Assembly (NCBI GenBank): GCA_965228895.1 | Contig: OZ245842.1 | Location: 1,184,001-1,248,000, forward strand | Direction: 5' to 3' | Source of the DNA: Alphaproteobacteria bacterium | Lineage (GTDB): Bacteria; Pseudomonadota; Alphaproteobacteria; SP197 | DNA length: 64,000 nucleotides | In this document: positions 42,108 through 51,873 of the stretch, one piece after another | How the letters are laid out: each line of letters starts with the position of its first letter | How positions within the stretch are numbered: the stretch's first letter is position 1 | Made by a program: the position numbers and the translations under genes | The notes under the pieces: model-generated | What the model saw: the letters and a program-made list of their open reading frames with translations, nothing else | Told to the model about the DNA's origin: nothing | Databases searched by the model: none

Positions 42108-42183
42108 GGGCCGTTAGCTCAGTTGGTAGAGCAGCTGACTCTTAATCAGCGGGTCACAGGTTCGAATCCTGTACGGCCCACCA
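42108..42183 (+). tRNA. tRNA-Lys (CTT)
   Basis: 76-nt cloverleaf GGGCCGT...ACGGCCCACCA, anticodon CTT at 42141-42143, GGTTCGAATCC T-arm. Confidence 0.97.
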
Positions 42184-42186
42184 ATT
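42138..42186 (+). repeat. attL core (49-bp direct repeat)
   Basis: ACTCTTAATCAGCGGGTCACAGGTTCGAATCCTGTACGGCCCACCAATT, identical to 51825-51873. Confidence 0.95.
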
Positions 42187-42249
42187 TTCGTAATAATTAC
42201 AATGACCTAAAGGTACATACGCCTTCCGTCGCATCTGGTCGATCGCCCT

Positions 42250-42269
42250 AAGATAACGCTGAAATAACA
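42250..42269 (+). repeat. putative integrase arm-type site (left)
   Basis: AAGATAACGCTGAAATAACA, 18/20 identical to 51686-51705. Confidence 0.7.
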
Positions 42270-42272
42270 CCA

Positions 42273-42830
42273 ATGCAGGAAATACCCATAGACTGGGGCA
42301 ATGCCCTCGTCGCATTTGTCGCTGAACTAATCTTGGTCCTGTTGGTCGTTCTATTCACCCCAAAGGCCAAGGTCATTTGGGGCATTAGCCACGGGTTCAC
42401 CTATCGGTTGACTTGGCCGAACCAACCAGATCTTAGGGTGCAAACCCAAAAGGTGACTGTTCACAACGTTGGTCGAGCGGCGGCGAGCGATGTGGAAGTC
42501 CATCTGAACTTCGAGCCCGAGCACTTCAATGTTTGGCCGACGCAAAACTACGAAACTGAGAAGAACCCAGAAGACCGCTTCACAATAAAGTTCCGGTCCT
42601 TAGGTCGTAACGAGCACGTGTCGATTGAAATGTTGTCGACAGGTGACCTTGAAGTTCCTGCCGTTCTCAGTGTCCGAAGCCCTCAGGGTGTCGCCAAGAT
42701 GGTCGCATTTGCACCTCTTCGGGTGTTCCCTCGTGCGGTCAATTTGACGTTTGTGGTTCTTGCCGCGATCGGGATCCTAGCGATCTTTTACATGATTGTA
42801 GCCGTCGTAAGCAGGGCGCTCGGCACATAA
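42273..42830 (+). CDS. hypothetical membrane protein (TM, beta-rich domain, TM)
   Basis: 185-aa ORF with hydrophobic ends and V.N.G..AA.DV motif. Confidence 0.7.
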   Translation: MQEIPIDWGNALVAFVAELILVLLVVLFTPKAKVIWGISHGFTYRLTWPNQPDLRVQTQKVTVHNVGRAAASDVEVHLNFEPEHFNVWPTQNYETEKNPEDRFTIKFRSLGRNEHVSIEMLSTGDLEVPAVLSVRSPQGVAKMVAFAPLRVFPRAVNLTFVVLAAIGILAIFYMIVAVVSRALGT

Positions 42831-42960
42831 CGATTTGTCGGTGCGGACGCATGATCCATGGTCCAATTCGGCTTCACTGATTGTCCGGACATGATTGGAT
42901 TCATTGCGCGTCCGCCAGTTTAGCCGCTGGTGATTTCGTATTGGTGTTAGTGACGACTGC

Positions 42961-43488
42961 CTAGAGAATCACCCCTGCTTCATGCGCTAGGCGTTCGACG
43001 AGAGCAGCCAACAAAATGATAGCGGCTAAGACTGCAGGCACGATCGAGAGAAAGAGCGACGGATAAAAGATCCGTTGAGACCACAGCAAATCAGATTGCC
43101 TTTGCTCATCAAGCTTCCTTTGCATTTCGGTTATGCCTGCTTGTGTCTGCTCGACTCCATCGGTCGCATTCGCCATCACGAATTGTTGCCTCGCCATTTT
43201 GATCGTCGTGAGGACAGTGACCGCAATATAGACAGCAAGTGAGAACGCCATAGCTAAACCCGTAGTCAACATCTCCCATGGAGCCATGTAGTCTCGAACA
43301 AATGCCCATAGAGCAAAAAAGCCAGCATAGCCGCCTGCTAGTATGACTCGATTGTACGCCTGTGACTTGTCGATTGAGTGAGCAATGAGTTCTTTCTGAA
43401 AGTCGATGACCTTCTTCGCAAATCGCTCTTCTTCGAGCGCCCGCAACCTCTCAGCATTTTCTTTGACCGCTTTGATCAGGTCTTCCAT
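42961..43488 (-). CDS. hypothetical 3-TM membrane protein
   Basis: ORF with three hydrophobic segments and a helical linker; start placed at MEDLIK. Confidence 0.7.
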   Translation of the reverse strand: MEDLIKAVKENAERLRALEEERFAKKVIDFQKELIAHSIDKSQAYNRVILAGGYAGFFALWAFVRDYMAPWEMLTTGLAMAFSLAVYIAVTVLTTIKMARQQFVMANATDGVEQTQAGITEMQRKLDEQRQSDLLWSQRIFYPSLFLSIVPAVLAAIILLAALVERLAHEAGVIL

Positions 43489-43599
43489 TGTCCTGTCTCT
43501 TACCGGCATTCCTCGGAATTCCTGGTGAGATGAGAATCTTCCGGACTGATGACGGAGGCAGTTGGAATTCTGCCTCCGTCATCTGGTTGCTGGCCGGAG

Positions 43600-49768: not shown

Positions 49769-49798
49769 GGGCTGCCACCGGCTAGGGCAGCCCTTTTT
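49769..49798 (+). terminator. intrinsic-terminator-like hairpin antisense to the element operon
   Basis: GGGCTGCC-N9-GGCAGCCC-TTTTT. Confidence 0.5.
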
Positions 49799-49884
49799 GC
49801 ATCTTGCATCCGGCATCACCGCACCTTTGGGTTTGGCTTGTCTCGGCACGCGCGAACAGCGCGGCCGGCAGGTCGGCGCAACGA

Positions 49885-50100
49885 TCACGCCGCTTCGGTC
49901 TCTTGGGCGCGCTTCTTGAGCAGTTCGATATAGCGAAGGCATTCGGAAATCGGCGTCCTGAGCGCATTGCCGATGAGAACCGGTTGCGGATAGTCCGGAT
50001 CTGTCCGGCGAAGTCGCCAATCGGTCGTCGTGCTGATTCCGAACAGCCGGCACTTCTCACGGTTCGAAAGCATCCGCTGTTCGTCGATTGTGTTTTCCAC
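49885..50100 (-). CDS. AlpA/excisionase-like DNA-binding protein
   Basis: GIS.TT.WR.....DYPQPV.IG; AAGGA RBS before GTG; downstream of the integrase. Confidence 0.72.
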   Translation of the reverse strand: MENTIDEQRMLSNREKCRLFGISTTTDWRLRRTDPDYPQPVLIGNALRTPISECLRYIELLKKRAQETEAA

Positions 50101-50443
50101 AGTGCCTGTCCTTTCAAGGTGTTGCTTCCCCTTAAAAGCGTGGCAGAATCTGCGGCCATGGGAAGTCGCTCTGACACGTCGGGAAAACTGCCGTTTTCGA
50201 TCGATGCGGACAAAGTTGTCCACGTCGTCAATCGCGTGTTCGACGTGTCGAGCAGGCACGTGCAGCGCATCCTTGACGAACAGTCAAAGGGCGAACGCGC
50301 GCCCGTGTTTCACGTGCAAGATGGGACGACTCAGGCCAATAGCATTGTCGGCGACTGGTTTGCCTATTCGCGCCAGACCGTCGCCAGGACCGCCGAGCGT
50401 CGAGAGACGTTCGCCCAAAACTACGGCGGTCAGACCATCAAGC

Positions 50444-51673
50444 TCATCTGAGTTTCCGGACACCCTCTGGCGCGACGATGCGCTCGAGCGAATCGGCCCA
50501 AATCTCAATCGCTGACGCGAGTTCACTGCGATAATCGAAATGGTCATATTGCGCGCCGCTGCCTCTGGCGGGCGCATGGTCGAGTAGCATGTCGCGCAAA
50601 TGTGGCTGGACGCCAAGAGCGGCGAGGCGGGTCTCGACGGTATGCCGGATTGCATGAAAATGAAAATCCGCGATGCCTGACTTTTCGATGATCAGACGTT
50701 GCAGTGACGAGCCGGGGTCGAGCGGCTTGGCCTTGTGCCTGCCGACGAAAACGTAGCCGTTGCCCTCGCGGCGCGTCAGTCCCGCGATGACCCTCTGCGC
50801 CAGCGGCGGCAGCGTCGTCGTGTGCGTCCGCTTGTTCGGCGCGGTGTCACCGGTGGGCGTCCACACGCCGTCGTCGACGTCATCCCATCGCATCGAGGCC
50901 AGCGCACCCTTGCGCTTGCCGAGCAGAATTAGCGTTTTGAGGAATGCCGACTTGTACTTGTCGAGGTCGCTGCCTTCCGCGAGTTCGTCGGCAACACGCC
51001 AAAGAACCTGCAGTTCGCCATCGGTGAAAACTCTCGCGCGCGGACGCTCGCCGTCGAAGGGTCGCAGAACAGTTGTCATCGGGTCGACGAGAACCTTGTC
51101 GCGACTGAGACACCATCGAAAGAAAACGCGATAGGCGCTCCAAGCACGATTGGCCGCGTAGCCTTTGCCCTCGGCCATAAGGCCGTCGAGAACGGTGAGA
51201 ACATCGCGCTTGGTGATGGCACCGACCGGACGGTTCAACCACTTCTTCTGACGTTTGAGGATGCGGTCGGATTCTGCCCAAGTCCGATTGTTCTTCTTTG
51301 CCTTGGCGAACTTCTCGATGAAATCGTCGACCGCATCCTCGAAGGTTTCGCTCTGCGCCTTCTTGGCAATCTCGACTTCAGCCGGGTCTAGTTTCTGGAC
51401 CCGTACCATTCTGTAGATTTCATCAGCCTTGTCTCGCGCGGCACGGATCGGCACTGACGGAAACCTGCCCAGCCCCTTGGCGACAAGCCGGGTAGTCACG
51501 GGACTGCGATACCAGATCACCCAACTCTTGACGCCTGACGGGCTGATCCGAAGTGCAAAGCCTGGCGTCGCGGCCGGCGAGTCCTCGTAGTACACAGCCG
51601 GTTCCTTCAACGCGCGAAGAGTGCGATCGGTAAACTTCACCCTGGGGCTTGGTTCTCTCTTCTTTCGTGCCAT
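50444..51673 (-). CDS. tyrosine integrase with arm-DNA-binding domain (P4-like)
   Basis: PGFALRI...G.KSW, LGRFP; catalytic R (LGKR), HAIR, H (LDH), Y (QYD). Confidence 0.93.
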   Translation of the reverse strand: MARKKREPSPRVKFTDRTLRALKEPAVYYEDSPAATPGFALRISPSGVKSWVIWYRSPVTTRLVAKGLGRFPSVPIRAARDKADEIYRMVRVQKLDPAEVEIAKKAQSETFEDAVDDFIEKFAKAKKNNRTWAESDRILKRQKKWLNRPVGAITKRDVLTVLDGLMAEGKGYAANRAWSAYRVFFRWCLSRDKVLVDPMTTVLRPFDGERPRARVFTDGELQVLWRVADELAEGSDLDKYKSAFLKTLILLGKRKGALASMRWDDVDDGVWTPTGDTAPNKRTHTTTLPPLAQRVIAGLTRREGNGYVFVGRHKAKPLDPGSSLQRLIIEKSGIADFHFHAIRHTVETRLAALGVQPHLRDMLLDHAPARGSGAQYDHFDYRSELASAIEIWADSLERIVAPEGVRKLR

Positions 51674-51685
51674 CAGGCGGTCTCC

Positions 51686-51705
51686 AAGATAACACCGAAA
51701 TAACA
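51686..51705 (+). repeat. putative integrase arm-type site (right)
   Basis: AAGATAACACCGAAATAACA, 18/20 identical to 42250-42269; abuts the integrase RBS. Confidence 0.7.
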
Positions 51706-51824
51706 GAATGACGAAATTAGGGGAAAAACGGTGAAACAGATTGAACCGCAGAATCCCAAGGGTTTCAAGGGCTATTGGTGTTCTATGCGTTTCAGGTGAT
51801 TGCGCAGAATTGCGCGGTCGTCTC

Positions 51825-51873
51825 ACTCTTAATCAGCGGGTCACAGGTTCGAATCCTGTACGGCCCACCAATT
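51825..51873 (+). repeat. attR core (3' part of tRNA-Lys)
   Basis: 49-bp perfect copy of 42138-42186; the 5' tRNA half is absent. Confidence 0.95.

What the first reader, a model, noticed from the sequence alone, without database searches (positions are those of the whole stretch)
42138..51873. Candidate new phage-satellite type: complete terminase, no head genes
Seen: perfect 49-bp att repeats, an integrase with all catalytic residues, and one co-oriented minus-strand run of int, alpA, HTH initiator with iterons, two small ORFs, terS-like, terL and three unknown ORFs, many ATGA-coupled and none visibly decayed. No portal, capsid, tail or lysis gene is recognisable. Known: P4-like and PICMI elements lack terminases, PICIs carry at most TerS, and cf-PICIs carry TerL together with portal and capsid. 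Inference: a satellite that replicates from its own origin and uses its own packaging motor on helper-phage (or GTA) proheads.
Basis: partly seen in the sequence, partly recalled or inferred. Interest (0 to 1): 0.88.

Follow-up and report, generated by a model that had tools for sequence, protein, structure and literature searches.

The report
Capsid-less island carrying its own terminase
A 9.7-kb mobile island inserted in a tRNA-Lys gene carries an integrase, its own replication origin and a complete phage DNA-packaging enzyme but no virus-shell genes, and it belongs to a widespread family of such islands, not found described in the searches run, that probably spread by stealing the capsids of other phages.

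Summary
A 9,736-bp island (42138-51873) lies between perfect 49-bp repeats, one of them the 3' end of tRNA-Lys(CTT). It encodes a tyrosine integrase, a small replication initiator with four iterons, a large terminase (TerL), a conserved small partner gene directly upstream, and orphan ORFs. No portal, capsid, tail or lysis gene is recognisable, and no unassigned ORF exceeds 222 aa.

It is not a one-off remnant. The TerL defines a family with 580 hits in the protein database and 413 metagenome contigs. It is under purifying selection (dN/dS 0.08-0.22 in 11 of 11 pairs). It has no close relative in 50,697 phage genomes.

The family sits in tRNA-integrated elements of 7.4-16.3 kb (26 delimited) with the order int, rep, TerS-like, TerL, variable cargo. 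Portals or capsids next to TerL are rare: 4 of 78 loci, 1 of 30 loci, and 1 of 50 genomes. Some relatives carry a protease, a head-tail connector or tape-measure-like genes.

Best reading (about 0.55): a helper-dependent phage satellite that brings its own terminase. Mobilisation is inferred, not shown. A GTA helper is not supported. The TerS identity is only positional. The window's TerL is the most diverged copy in the family. No paper found describes this architecture. This scan has noted analogous islands in other phyla.

The parts
42108..42183 (+). tRNA-Lys(CTT), the integration target; its 3' 46 nt are part of the att repeat
   Evidence: ARAGORN; Rfam RF00005 76.1 bits
42138..42186 (.). 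att repeat, tRNA-proximal copy (49 bp)
   Evidence: the repeat finder D2; the 25-mer occurs twice in the window and in 0 of 100 shuffles
42273..42830 (+). 185-aa ORF with hydrophobic ends; cargo of unknown function
   Evidence: no significant Pfam, PHROG or PADLOC hit
42961..43509 (-). 182-aa ORF with predicted membrane segments; cargo of unknown function
   Evidence: no significant hit
43600..44064 (-). XRE-type HTH protein (154 aa), probable antitoxin or regulator of the neighbouring DUF4258 gene
   Evidence: phrog_5119 5e-18; HTH_3 9.6e-5, 22.8 bits, just under the 23-bit cut-off. A homologue at 53% identity lies in the cargo of related element L011
44095..44469 (-). DUF4258 protein (124 aa), probable toxin of a cargo toxin-antitoxin pair
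   Evidence: PF14076 25.4 bits against a cut-off of 25. A homologue at 45% identity lies beside the HTH gene in L011
44986..45654 (-). 222-aa orphan ORF downstream of TerL; real gene of unknown function, predicted all-helical
   Evidence: One homologue in 5.8 billion proteins, 86% identical. No family or Atlas hit. AF2 model pLDDT 51.7, helices only
45651..45860 (-). 69-aa ORF, translationally coupled on both sides
   Evidence: no significant hit
45857..46339 (-). 160-aa orphan ORF directly downstream of TerL
   Evidence: One homologue covering the C-terminal 106 residues at 75% identity. No family hit
46396..47901 (-). Terminase large subunit (501 aa), HK97-like ATPase plus nuclease, with a non-glycine P-loop
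   Evidence: PF03354 25.3 bits (cut-off 23.7); phrog_9 3.1e-19. The family profile hits HK97 TerL 6Z6D at E 1.9e-4. Walker Lys, Walker B DE, FVDMSGGS and HDD motifs are invariant in the family
47898..48296 (-). TerS-like conserved partner gene (132 aa), ATGA-coupled to TerL
   Evidence: The same family lies directly upstream of TerL in 46 of 62 loci and 47 of 62 loci. No Pfam or PDB sequence match. Helical AF2 model pLDDT 87. The BFVD top hits include several 'terminase small subunit' entries, but at E of about 0.15
48297..48527 (.). 231-bp non-coding gap upstream of the TerS-like gene; candidate late promoter and pac/cos region (inference only)
   Evidence: Sequence read; nothing significant in the promoter/terminator scan
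48528..48944 (-). 138-aa protein with an N-terminal Cys4 zinc ribbon
   Evidence: phrog_6975 3.4e-7. The N-terminal 60 residues resemble the zinc-ribbon part of HNH/NinG families (phrog_1271 4.7e-6; NinG 0.0036, below the cut-off). No HNH motif was shown
48941..49195 (-). 84-aa ORF, coupled to the next gene
   Evidence: no significant hit
49184..49328 (.). Four roughly 22-nt palindromic iterons: candidate replication origin inside and just after the 3' end of rep
   Evidence: the repeat finder D1, I2, I16, I23; sequence read
49196..49699 (-). Replication initiator (167 aa), winged-helix DnaD/O-like
   Evidence: phrog_186 1.2e-10, phrog_270 2.1e-4, phrog_345 0.005. The same family lies upstream of TerL in 9 other loci
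49885..50073 (-). 62-aa AlpA/excisionase-like ORF (weak)
   Evidence: phrog_66 E 0.03 on the longer ORF; no Pfam hit; no meaningful PDB hit
50444..51673 (-). Tyrosine integrase (409 aa from the ATG)
   Evidence: Arm-DNA-bind_3, Phage_integrase, phrog_1 1.3e-47; aligns with lambda Int
51825..51873 (.). att repeat, integrase-proximal copy (49 bp)

Best explanation
The island is an integrated, helper-dependent phage satellite of a family I could not find described. The family's hallmark is a private terminase: a TerS-like partner plus a distinctive TerL. It has no capsid or portal of its own.

Proposed cycle, all of it inferred:
1. An infecting or induced helper phage de-represses the island.
2. 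The integrase, perhaps with the small AlpA-like protein, excises it at the 49-bp att sites.
3. The small initiator fires the iteron origin, using host helicase and primase.
4. The TerS-like protein recognises a site on the island DNA, possibly in the 231-bp gap upstream of its gene.
5. The island's own TerL cuts the DNA and pumps it into procapsids made by the helper. Tails and lysis also come from the helper.
6. Because 9.7 kb is far below a normal head capacity, packaging would need either multimers or helper capsids made smaller. The three orphan genes after TerL occupy the place where relatives carry scaffold-like, connector-like, protease or portal genes, so they are candidates for such capsid manipulation.
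7. The rest (DUF4258/HTH pair, two membrane proteins) is swappable cargo.

Shown: the anatomy, the recurrence of the architecture, and selection on TerL. Inferred: induction, packaging, and the helper.
For: Anatomy: perfect att repeats at a tRNA, integrase, initiator with iterons, and TerL with all catalytic motifs.

Recurrence in two independent collections:
- 78 loci were examined in the first set (the window plus 77 of 81 fetched loci).
- A TerS-like gene lies directly upstream of TerL in 46 of 62 loci with enough upstream sequence.
- The integrase cluster is present in 47 loci and co-oriented in 44.
- 18 elements are delimited by att repeats of 23 bp or more, 17 of them at a tRNA, with sizes of 9.6-16.3 kb.
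- In the metagenome set, TerS-like is upstream in 47 of 62 loci, and 8 more elements of 7.4-16.0 kb are delimited at tRNAs.

Virion genes near TerL are rare:
- A phrog_145-type portal occurs in 4 of 78 loci and in 1 of 30 loci.
- A PF05065 capsid lies next to TerL in 1 of 50 genomes.
- A PF04860 portal lies next to TerL in 0 of 50 genomes.

TerL looks functional and mobile:
- dN/dS is 0.075-0.22 in 11 of 11 close pairs.
- The frame is intact in nearly all copies.
- Several genomes hold 3 distinct full copies.

The family is not a phage family in culture. The window's TerL has no tblastn hit in 50,697 phage records. A typical member reaches only 26-27% identity over half its length or less.

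Relatives carry typical satellite 'hijack' genes. The nearest full locus, L002, is also 9.65 kb and also at tRNA-Lys(CTT). It has a scaffold/cement-like gene (phrog_673 1.6e-10) and a gp10/Neck1-like connector (phrog_26 2e-15; PF05069 above its cut-off). Others carry an S78 prohead protease or tape-measure/tail-lysozyme-like proteins.

Published satellites show precedents for each part. cfPICI carry terL. EPIPs carry a tape measure. A 15.8-kb circular virome scaffold with terminase, a tail gene, prim-pol and a P4-type integrase was called a putative satellite (PMC10085698, PMC12822802, PMC4490671; passages read).
Against: - There is no direct sign of excision, circles or packaging. The two runs that hold the island are metagenome contigs that merely break at the att repeats. 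None of 20 whole-contig loci and none of 80 metagenome loci has terminal repeats.
- No candidate helper is resident. The genome has no PF05065 capsid, PF04860 portal or phrog_145 portal. Only 10 of 50 carrier genomes have any PF05065 hit.
- The TerS-like protein matches no TerS family by sequence (0 of 45 members). It matches none significantly by fold.
- All 64 family TerLs lack the P-loop glycine before the Walker lysine, so a canonical motor ATPase is not certain.
- The window's TerL is the family's outlier. It deviates at 24 of 142 conserved columns against a median of 4, and its terminal branch is 1.73 against a median of 0.47. This could mean relaxed constraint in this copy.
- The three genes after TerL have no relatives in any related element.
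Confidence: 0.55

Rival explanations
1. This copy is an immobile, slowly decaying relic of a once fuller capsid-forming satellite or small prophage of the same family. Its terminase genes are still open but no longer used.
For: The window's TerL is the most diverged of 64: 24 of 142 conserved columns changed against a median of 4, and it has the longest terminal branch. The island is at the small end of the family's size range. It lacks the primase/helicase genes that many relatives have. Some relatives do carry a portal, protease or connector genes, so loss is plausible. The TerL was not found in 60 related genomes.
Against: - The 49-bp att copies are still identical.
- Every gene in the co-oriented run is open, and four junctions keep ATGA coupling.
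- All invariant catalytic residues of TerL are kept.
- The nearest protein, P0003 (58% identity), shares the window's peculiar indels. The divergence therefore looks like a sub-lineage, not decay.
- The 222-aa gene has an 86%-identical homologue with conservative changes.
- Other minimal elements of 7.4-9.8 kb exist: L002, L010, L105, L108, L134, L164.
Confidence: 0.2
2. The island is a mobile defence or interference element. Its TerS-like/TerL pair does not package the island. Instead it sabotages incoming phages, for example by cutting their DNA or competing for their portals. The island spreads by other means.
For: Satellite terminase subunits are known to interfere with helper packaging (PICI TerS; passages in PMC10085698 and PMC9618062). 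The non-glycine P-loop, conserved in 64 of 64 copies, could fit a protein that binds but does not translocate. The cargo includes a DUF4258/HTH pair. A TIR-domain gene lies just outside attR.
Against: - PADLOC recognises none of the island's proteins as a known defence component, apart from a weak HTH match.
- The Walker Lys, Walker B and all nuclease motifs are conserved under purifying selection, as expected of a working terminase.
- The island carries no other means of transfer.
- Interference and self-packaging are not exclusive in known satellites.
Confidence: 0.12
3. The island is a complete miniature virus. The orphan genes encode novel, unrecognisable capsid and portal proteins.
For: Five ORFs (84, 138, 160, 69 and 222 aa) have no recognisable family.
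Against: A TerL motor needs a portal. Known portals and HK97-fold capsid proteins are much larger than 222 aa (general knowledge). The 222-aa protein is predicted all-helical, though at low confidence. There are no tail or lysis genes. These orphan genes are not conserved in any related element, whereas virion genes would be.
Confidence: 0.03
4. The helper is a resident gene transfer agent, not a phage.
For: The host is an alphaproteobacterium, a class in which RcGTA-like agents are common (general knowledge). ARAGORN marks its tmRNA as the permuted kind.
Against: No PF05065 capsid, PF04860 portal or phrog_145 portal was found anywhere in the 5.5-Mb, 98.7%-complete genome. The same searches do detect them in the Caulobacter control.
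Confidence: 0.02

Closest known systems
Capsid-forming PICIs (cf-PICI), as modelled in SatelliteFinder (PMC10085698; passages read)
   Same: A small integrated island with the order integrase, regulator, replication module, then a packaging module that includes its own TerS and TerL. It depends on a helper for the rest of the virion.
   Different: cf-PICIs are defined by 11 core components, with at least 9 required. These include the capsid, portal, head-tail adaptor and connector. This island has none of those. Its TerL family has no close phage or E. coli-type relative in the collections searched. Relatives carry at most one or two head or neck genes.
Classical PICIs / SaPIs (five core components: int, regulator, pri-rep, capsid morphogenesis, terS; PMC10085698)
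   Same: Size (median 9.5 kb in that paper), the int-regulator-rep-terS order, accessory cargo after the packaging gene, and tRNA-type att sites.
   Different: PICIs redirect the helper's TerL with their own TerS and do not carry a TerL. In that paper terL is listed as a component that distinguishes cfPICI. The TerS-like gene here matches no known TerS family.
EPIPs of Mycolicibacterium (PMC12822802, preprint; passages read) and the glacial virome scaffold ML_43_3791 (PMC4490671; passages read)
   Same: Small satellites, or putative satellites, with a partial and odd mix of packaging and tail genes. Examples are a tape measure in EPIPs and terminase + tail gene + prim-pol + P4-type integrase on a 15.8-kb circular virome scaffold. 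They resemble relatives L020, L050 and L056 of this family.
   Different: EPIPs carry TerS but, as listed there, no TerL, and they use a serine integrase. The virome scaffold was only annotated by BLASTX and I could not compare its sequence.
PICMIs and marine VEIMEs (PMC10803314, abstract only; PMC9618062, passages read)
   Same: Minimal satellites without capsid genes. They are packaged as multimers in full-size helper heads, which is one way a 9.7-kb element could fill a capsid.
   Different: They rely on the helper's large terminase. Some VEIMEs have TerS only.
HK97-type large terminases (Pfam PF03354; PDB 6Z6D)
   Same: Two-domain ATPase plus RNase-H-like nuclease. The Walker Lys, Walker B Asp-Glu and nuclease acidic residues are conserved.
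   Different: The glycine that precedes the Walker lysine in HK97 TerL is replaced by W/F/Y/N/A/S/H in 64 of 64 family members. Similarity to PF03354 is marginal (25.3 bits).

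Membership tests
PICI (SatelliteFinder model, PMC10085698) | Integrase | tested here: met
   phrog_1 1.3e-47; Pfam Phage_integrase and Arm-DNA-bind_3
PICI (SatelliteFinder model, PMC10085698) | Regulator of AlpA/MerR/Stl type | tested here: inconclusive
   The 62-aa ORF looks AlpA-like by eye. Support is only phrog_66 at E 0.03, with no Pfam hit
PICI (SatelliteFinder model, PMC10085698) | Primase-replicase module | tested here: inconclusive
   A DnaD/O-like initiator with iterons is present (phrog_186 1.2e-10). 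There is no primase or helicase, and SatelliteFinder's own profiles were not available
PICI (SatelliteFinder model, PMC10085698) | Small terminase subunit, and no large terminase (the helper's TerL is used) | tested here: not met
   A TerL is present. The TerS-like gene matches no TerS family
cf-PICI (SatelliteFinder model, at least 9 of 11 core components) | Own major capsid protein | tested here: not met
   No capsid hit among the 14 island ORFs scanned. No PF05065 hit in the whole genome. The largest unassigned ORF is 222 aa
cf-PICI (SatelliteFinder model, at least 9 of 11 core components) | [quoted passage not shown] | tested here: not met
   No hits in the island. No PF04860 or phrog_145 hit in the genome
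cf-PICI (SatelliteFinder model, at least 9 of 11 core components) | Large terminase (terL) | tested here: met
   PF03354 above its cut-off; phrog_9 3.1e-19
P4-like satellites | Psu-Delta-Sid operon and a P4 alpha-type primase | tested here: not met
   No PHROG or Pfam hit of that kind among the island ORFs. The feature list is taken from PMC10085698
Terminase large subunit (PF03354 / HK97 type) | Walker A lysine, Walker B Asp-Glu, and the nuclease acidic residues | tested here: met
   K55, D148-E149, D298 and D430-D431 are invariant in the 26-sequence alignment. The profile aligns to 6Z6D
Terminase large subunit (PF03354 / HK97 type) | Canonical P-loop glycine before the Walker lysine | tested here: not met
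   F in the window; W37 F13 Y5 N3 A3 S2 H1 across 64 members; G in HK97 TerL
Terminase small subunit (any Pfam family or solved structure) | Sequence or fold match to a known TerS | tested here: inconclusive
   0 of 45 members hit a TerS Pfam family. There is no PDB sequence hit and no PDB fold hit with E below 1. The BFVD top-50 includes about ten 'terminase small subunit' models, but at E 0.15 or worse. The position directly upstream of TerL is conserved
Complete temperate phage (prophage) | Capsid, portal, tail and lysis modules; genome usually over 30 kb | tested here: not met
   9.7 kb between the att sites, with none of these modules

The most novel reading that the evidence does not exclude
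These islands would be a new, phylum-spanning class of phage satellites, 'terminase-only' satellites. They would hijack nothing but empty procapsids and tails, bringing a complete private packaging enzyme whose ATPase has a re-engineered P-loop (no glycine before the Walker lysine). This would let them out-compete helper genomes at the portal and switch helpers by swapping small head-interaction genes downstream of TerL. Together with the analogous islands this scan noted in CPR bacteria and Verrucomicrobia, and the second island of a different type in this same genome, private terminases would be a common, convergent satellite strategy that current satellite finders miss.
Probability: 0.45. 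Interest if true: 0.82.

Novelty: new variant of a known kind. Interest (0 to 1): 0.7.

Why it matters
Phage satellites shape gene transfer and phage resistance. The described families come mostly from enterobacteria, Firmicutes and vibrios, and they fall into two groups. One group borrows the helper's large terminase (P4, PICI, PLE, PICMI, VEIME). The other group builds its own capsid as well (cf-PICI).

A family that brings the whole packaging enzyme but no shell would fill the gap between the two. It would extend satellites to soil and marine Alphaproteobacteria, Acidobacteriota, Nitrospirota and others. It would also explain many 'orphan terminase' genes that annotation pipelines score as defective prophages.

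The family offers a natural experiment on how a terminase recognises a foreign portal, and on whether a P-loop without its glycine can still drive DNA translocation. Several carriers are cultured strains, according to the record titles: Nitrospirillum sp. BR 11164, Mesorhizobium carmichaelinearum ICMP 18942, Bradyrhizobium sp. DASA03120, Bradyrhizobium tunisiense 1AS2L, Afipia sp. OHSU_II-C1 and Lichenibacterium minor RmlP026. The idea is therefore directly testable.

Tried and rejected
- **Homologues of the orphan genes.** The word-indexed search found one homologue each for the 222-aa and 160-aa proteins, both on one 10,362-bp contig that I could not fetch. The ESM Atlas gave nothing usable. 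Iterative HMM searches in 81 + 80 related loci found nothing.
- **Structure of the 222-aa protein.** The AF2 model has pLDDT 51.7, too poor to search with. No fold search was run on it.
- **TerS-like fold.** Foldseek against the PDB gave no hit with E below 1. BFVD gave only E of 0.14 or worse.
- **Complex prediction on TerL with the TerS-like protein.** No verdict: score 0.11 against a mark of 0.32. This is not evidence either way.
- **Sequencing runs.** Two DNA runs of one study hold the island as contigs, and no RNA holder is listed. Laying them showed one 9,717-bp contig ending at the att repeats, at depth 18.2 against 15.3 and 14.7 for the flanks. No attP or attB joint was seen. Contig depth is not a copy number, so I draw nothing from it.
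- **Circular or packaged forms.** 0 of 20 whole-contig loci and 0 of 80 metagenome loci have terminal repeats.
- **Rfam and promoter/terminator scans of the island.** Only the tRNA was found. Promoter-like and terminator-like sites are no more frequent than in shuffles.
- **PADLOC.** Only a weak HTH match to RmrA.
- **AlpA-like ORF against Pfam and PDB.** Nothing meaningful.
- **Related genomes.** The TerL was not found in the 60 related genomes searched.
- **Earlier notes of this scan near this place or with this sequence.** None.
- **att repeats of only 14-16 bp.** I dropped L006, L008, L033, L044 and L059 as possibly chance before counting delimited elements.
- **Literature.** Five full-text searches were accepted (one search was a malformed query). 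I read passages of eight papers. None describes a satellite with TerS + TerL and no capsid or portal. Supplementary tables of the SatelliteFinder, VEIME and tycheposon papers, which I could not open, may list such elements.

Full report
**1. The observation**

ARAGORN finds tRNA-Lys(CTT) at 42108-42183, and Rfam agrees. A 52-nt direct repeat with one mismatch joins 42135-42186 to 51822-51873, which leaves 49 identical bases at 42138-42186 and 51825-51873. A 25-mer from it occurs exactly twice in the 64-kb window and in none of 100 shuffles. GC falls from 0.62-0.66 in the left flank to 0.51-0.61 inside.

Between the repeats lies one co-oriented minus-strand run:
- A tyrosine integrase: phrog_1 1.3e-47; Pfam Arm-DNA-bind_3 and Phage_integrase. 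Its first catalytic Arg aligns with that of lambda Int.
- A 62-aa AlpA-like ORF with only weak support: phrog_66 E 0.03 and no Pfam hit.
- A 167-aa DnaD/O-like initiator (phrog_186 1.2e-10). Its 3' end and the following junction hold four ~22-nt palindromic iterons at 49184-49328.
- ORFs of 84 and 138 aa. The 138-aa ORF has an N-terminal zinc ribbon.
- A 132-aa ORF with no family match, ATGA-coupled to a 501-aa large terminase (PF03354 25.3 bits against a cut-off of 23.7; phrog_9 3.1e-19).
- ORFs of 160, 69 and 222 aa with no hits.
- A DUF4258/XRE-HTH pair and two membrane-type ORFs.

Nothing resembles a portal, capsid, tail or lysis gene.

**2. Is the terminase real?**

A profile of 26 family members aligns to the solved HK97 large terminase 6Z6D (E 1.9e-4). 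The Walker lysine, the Walker B Asp-Glu, and the nuclease motifs FVDMSGGS and HDD are invariant.

One feature is odd. The glycine that precedes the Walker lysine in HK97 TerL is never glycine in this family: W 37, F 13, Y 5, N 3, A 3, S 2, H 1 of 64, and F in the window. I have no explanation for this and flag it.

**3. Is it a lone remnant or a kind of element?**

The TerL occurs once in its own genome and was not found in the 60 related genomes searched. It is far from alone elsewhere:
- 580 hits at about 45-58% identity in the word-indexed protein database, nearly all unnamed.
- 160 cluster representatives below 1e-30.
- 75 stretches in reference genomes, 7 in IMG/VR and 413 metagenome contigs.

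I called ORFs in all fetched loci and clustered them. Only three neighbours recur:
- The small gene directly upstream of TerL. It is found in 46 of 62 loci with 600 nt or more upstream, and in 47 of 62 in the independent metagenome set.
- A tyrosine integrase, in 47 of 78 loci and co-oriented in 44.
- Varied replication genes. The window's initiator family is found in 9 other loci.

Searching for repeats between the integrase-distal flank and the region beyond TerL delimited 18 elements with repeats of 23 bp or more. Of these, 17 are at a tRNA, and sizes run from 9.6 to 16.3 kb. Five loci with repeats of only 14-16 bp were dropped before this count. The metagenome set added 8 more elements of 7.4-16.0 kb, all at tRNAs. 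Two of them (L002 and L105) use tRNA-Lys(CTT), like the window.

Other signs of a living family:
- TerL is under purifying selection: dN/dS 0.075-0.22 in 11 of 11 close pairs.
- Its frame is open in nearly every genome copy.
- Some genomes hold three distinct full copies, which suggests active spread.

**4. Are capsid genes really absent from the family?**

Downstream of TerL nothing is conserved.
- A phrog_145-type portal follows TerL in 4 of 78 loci (L016, L017, L049, L052) and in 1 of 30 metagenome loci with 3 kb or more downstream.
- Searching 50 carrier genomes with Pfam models put a PF05065 capsid next to TerL in 1 genome (L025) and a PF04860 portal next to it in none.
- Of 111 ORFs of 100 aa or more downstream of TerL in the 17 other delimited elements, the commonest PHROG families were integrases, regulators, the two portals, tape-measure-like proteins and Neck1-type connectors. 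No major-capsid family was among them (only the top 25 of 94 families are shown).
- Thirty of these ORFs were scanned individually. They gave two portals, two prohead proteases, four tape-measure/tail-lysozyme-like proteins, one Neck1/gpS-like connector and many blanks.
- A scaffold/cement-like protein appeared in the per-member table and was re-checked with Pfam.

So the family is mostly capsid-less, but it is sprinkled with single head, neck or tail genes. This is the pattern expected of satellites that tamper with a helper's assembly line. It is not the pattern of random prophage decay.

The window's nearest full relative, L002, is 9.65 kb at the same tRNA. It has a scaffold/cement-like gene and a connector gene exactly where the window has its three orphan ORFs.

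**5. Relation to phages**

The window's TerL has no tblastn match in 50,697 phage records at 1e-5. A typical family member reaches only 26-27% identity over 34-50% of its length, to three Streptomyces phage terminases. Plasmids hold only distant nuclease-domain matches. The refutation condition 'close homologues occur only in complete prophages' therefore fails clearly.

**6. The weak points**

- The TerS label is positional. 0 of 45 members hit a TerS Pfam family. There is no PDB sequence or fold match. The BFVD list is enriched in 'terminase small subunit' models but at E 0.15 or worse.
- The window's TerL is the family outlier: 24 of 142 conserved columns changed against a median of 4, and the longest branch. 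The 58%-identical P0003 shares its indels, which points to a sub-lineage rather than decay.
- The 160- and 222-aa genes have one homologue each in 5.8 billion proteins. The homologue of the 222-aa gene is 86% identical with conservative changes, so it is a real gene.
- There is no direct evidence of excision or packaging.
- There is no resident helper. The 98.7%-complete genome has no PF05065, PF04860 or phrog_145 hit, while the control genomes do. This also speaks against a GTA helper.

**7. Mechanism**

The best-supported reading is a helper-dependent satellite with a private terminase. It would excise through the integrase, replicate from the iterons, and be recognised by the TerS-like protein. 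Its own TerL would then cut it and pump it into helper procapsids.

A 9.7-kb genome cannot fill a normal head. It would need multimers, as in PICMI and VEIME (abstract of PMC10803314; passages of PMC9618062), or smaller capsids, as in P4 and SaPI. The orphan genes after TerL are the candidates for the latter.

I give this reading about 0.55. The rivals are:
- A relic copy, 0.2.
- A terminase used for interference rather than transfer, 0.12.
- A complete mini-virus, 0.03.
- A GTA helper, 0.02.

**8. Comparison with what is known**

By the definitions in the SatelliteFinder paper (passages), the island fails PICI membership because it carries a TerL and its TerS is unrecognised. It fails cf-PICI membership because it lacks a capsid, portal and adaptors, so at most 5 of 11 components are present. 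It has no P4 hallmark.

It works like a PICI in layout and like a cf-PICI in owning its terminase. I found no paper describing TerS + TerL without capsid and portal. This rests on the accepted searches, and on passages of PMC10085698, PMC9618062, PMC4490671, PMC12822802, PMC11389934, and bioRxiv 2020.12.28.424599 and 2025.02.15.638363.

The nearest hint in print is a 15.8-kb circular glacial virome scaffold with terminase, a tail gene, prim-pol and a P4-type integrase, called a putative satellite. Supplements were closed and may list more.

This scan itself has noted analogous 'capsid-less terminase islands' on other DNA, in CPR bacteria and in a Verrucomicrobia relative. Those are unchecked AI notes, not independent evidence.

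**9. Verdict**

The feature is real. I rate it a new variant of a known kind (phage satellites), interest 0.7.

Noticed in passing
own genome G000:C1 about 321,900-331,900 (locus L085 9,893-19,900), outside the window: A second terminase island of a different type, with no portal gene after its TerL. Its order is tRNA-Met, a 598-aa large serine recombinase (phrog_95 4e-98), a phrog_11806 protein, a TerL of another family (phrog_38 9e-110), a 147-aa phrog_26239 protein, and a ParB-methyltransferase (phrog_498). GC is lower than in the flank. The genome has no HK97-type capsid or portal hit anywhere. The layout matches the islands this scan noted in CPR bacteria.
   Followed up: partly
window 51874-55500: Just outside attR lies another low-GC stretch. 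It holds a TIR-domain protein (52222-52959; TIR_2 1.1e-14), a 94-aa phrog_1090 protein (53087-53371) and a 209-aa membrane-type ORF. It may be a defence islet or an older island at the same tRNA hotspot. No further att copy was found.
   Followed up: partly
window 46396-47901 and all 64 full-length family TerLs: The P-loop reads G-[RS]-x-K-K-N-[WFY...]-K-[ST]. The glycine before the Walker lysine that HK97 TerL has is replaced in every member, mostly by tryptophan. This is unexplained.
   Followed up: partly
window 43600-44469; locus L011 11168-12009: The DUF4258 + XRE-HTH gene pair of the window's cargo recurs as a pair in the cargo of a distantly related element, at 45% and 53% identity. It therefore moves between these islands as a cassette.
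   Followed up: no
carrier genomes G066, G067, G076, G077, G078, G081, G085, G092: Several ~500-aa ORFs match only the nuclease half (profile positions 275-470) of the family TerL. They suggest a sister terminase family that shares the nuclease domain but has a different ATPase domain.
   Followed up: no
window 21059-21369: A permuted (two-piece type) tmRNA gene with the tag ANDNEAFAVAA, as usual in Alphaproteobacteria.
   Followed up: no
loci L020 13291-15126, L050 12591-14573, L056 12687-14684, L027 13534-14964: Four related islands of 11-16 kb carry a 476-665-aa tape-measure-like protein. The one in L020 has a Phage_lysozyme2 domain (4e-20). They recall the tape-measure gene of the recently described EPIP satellites.
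   Followed up: partly
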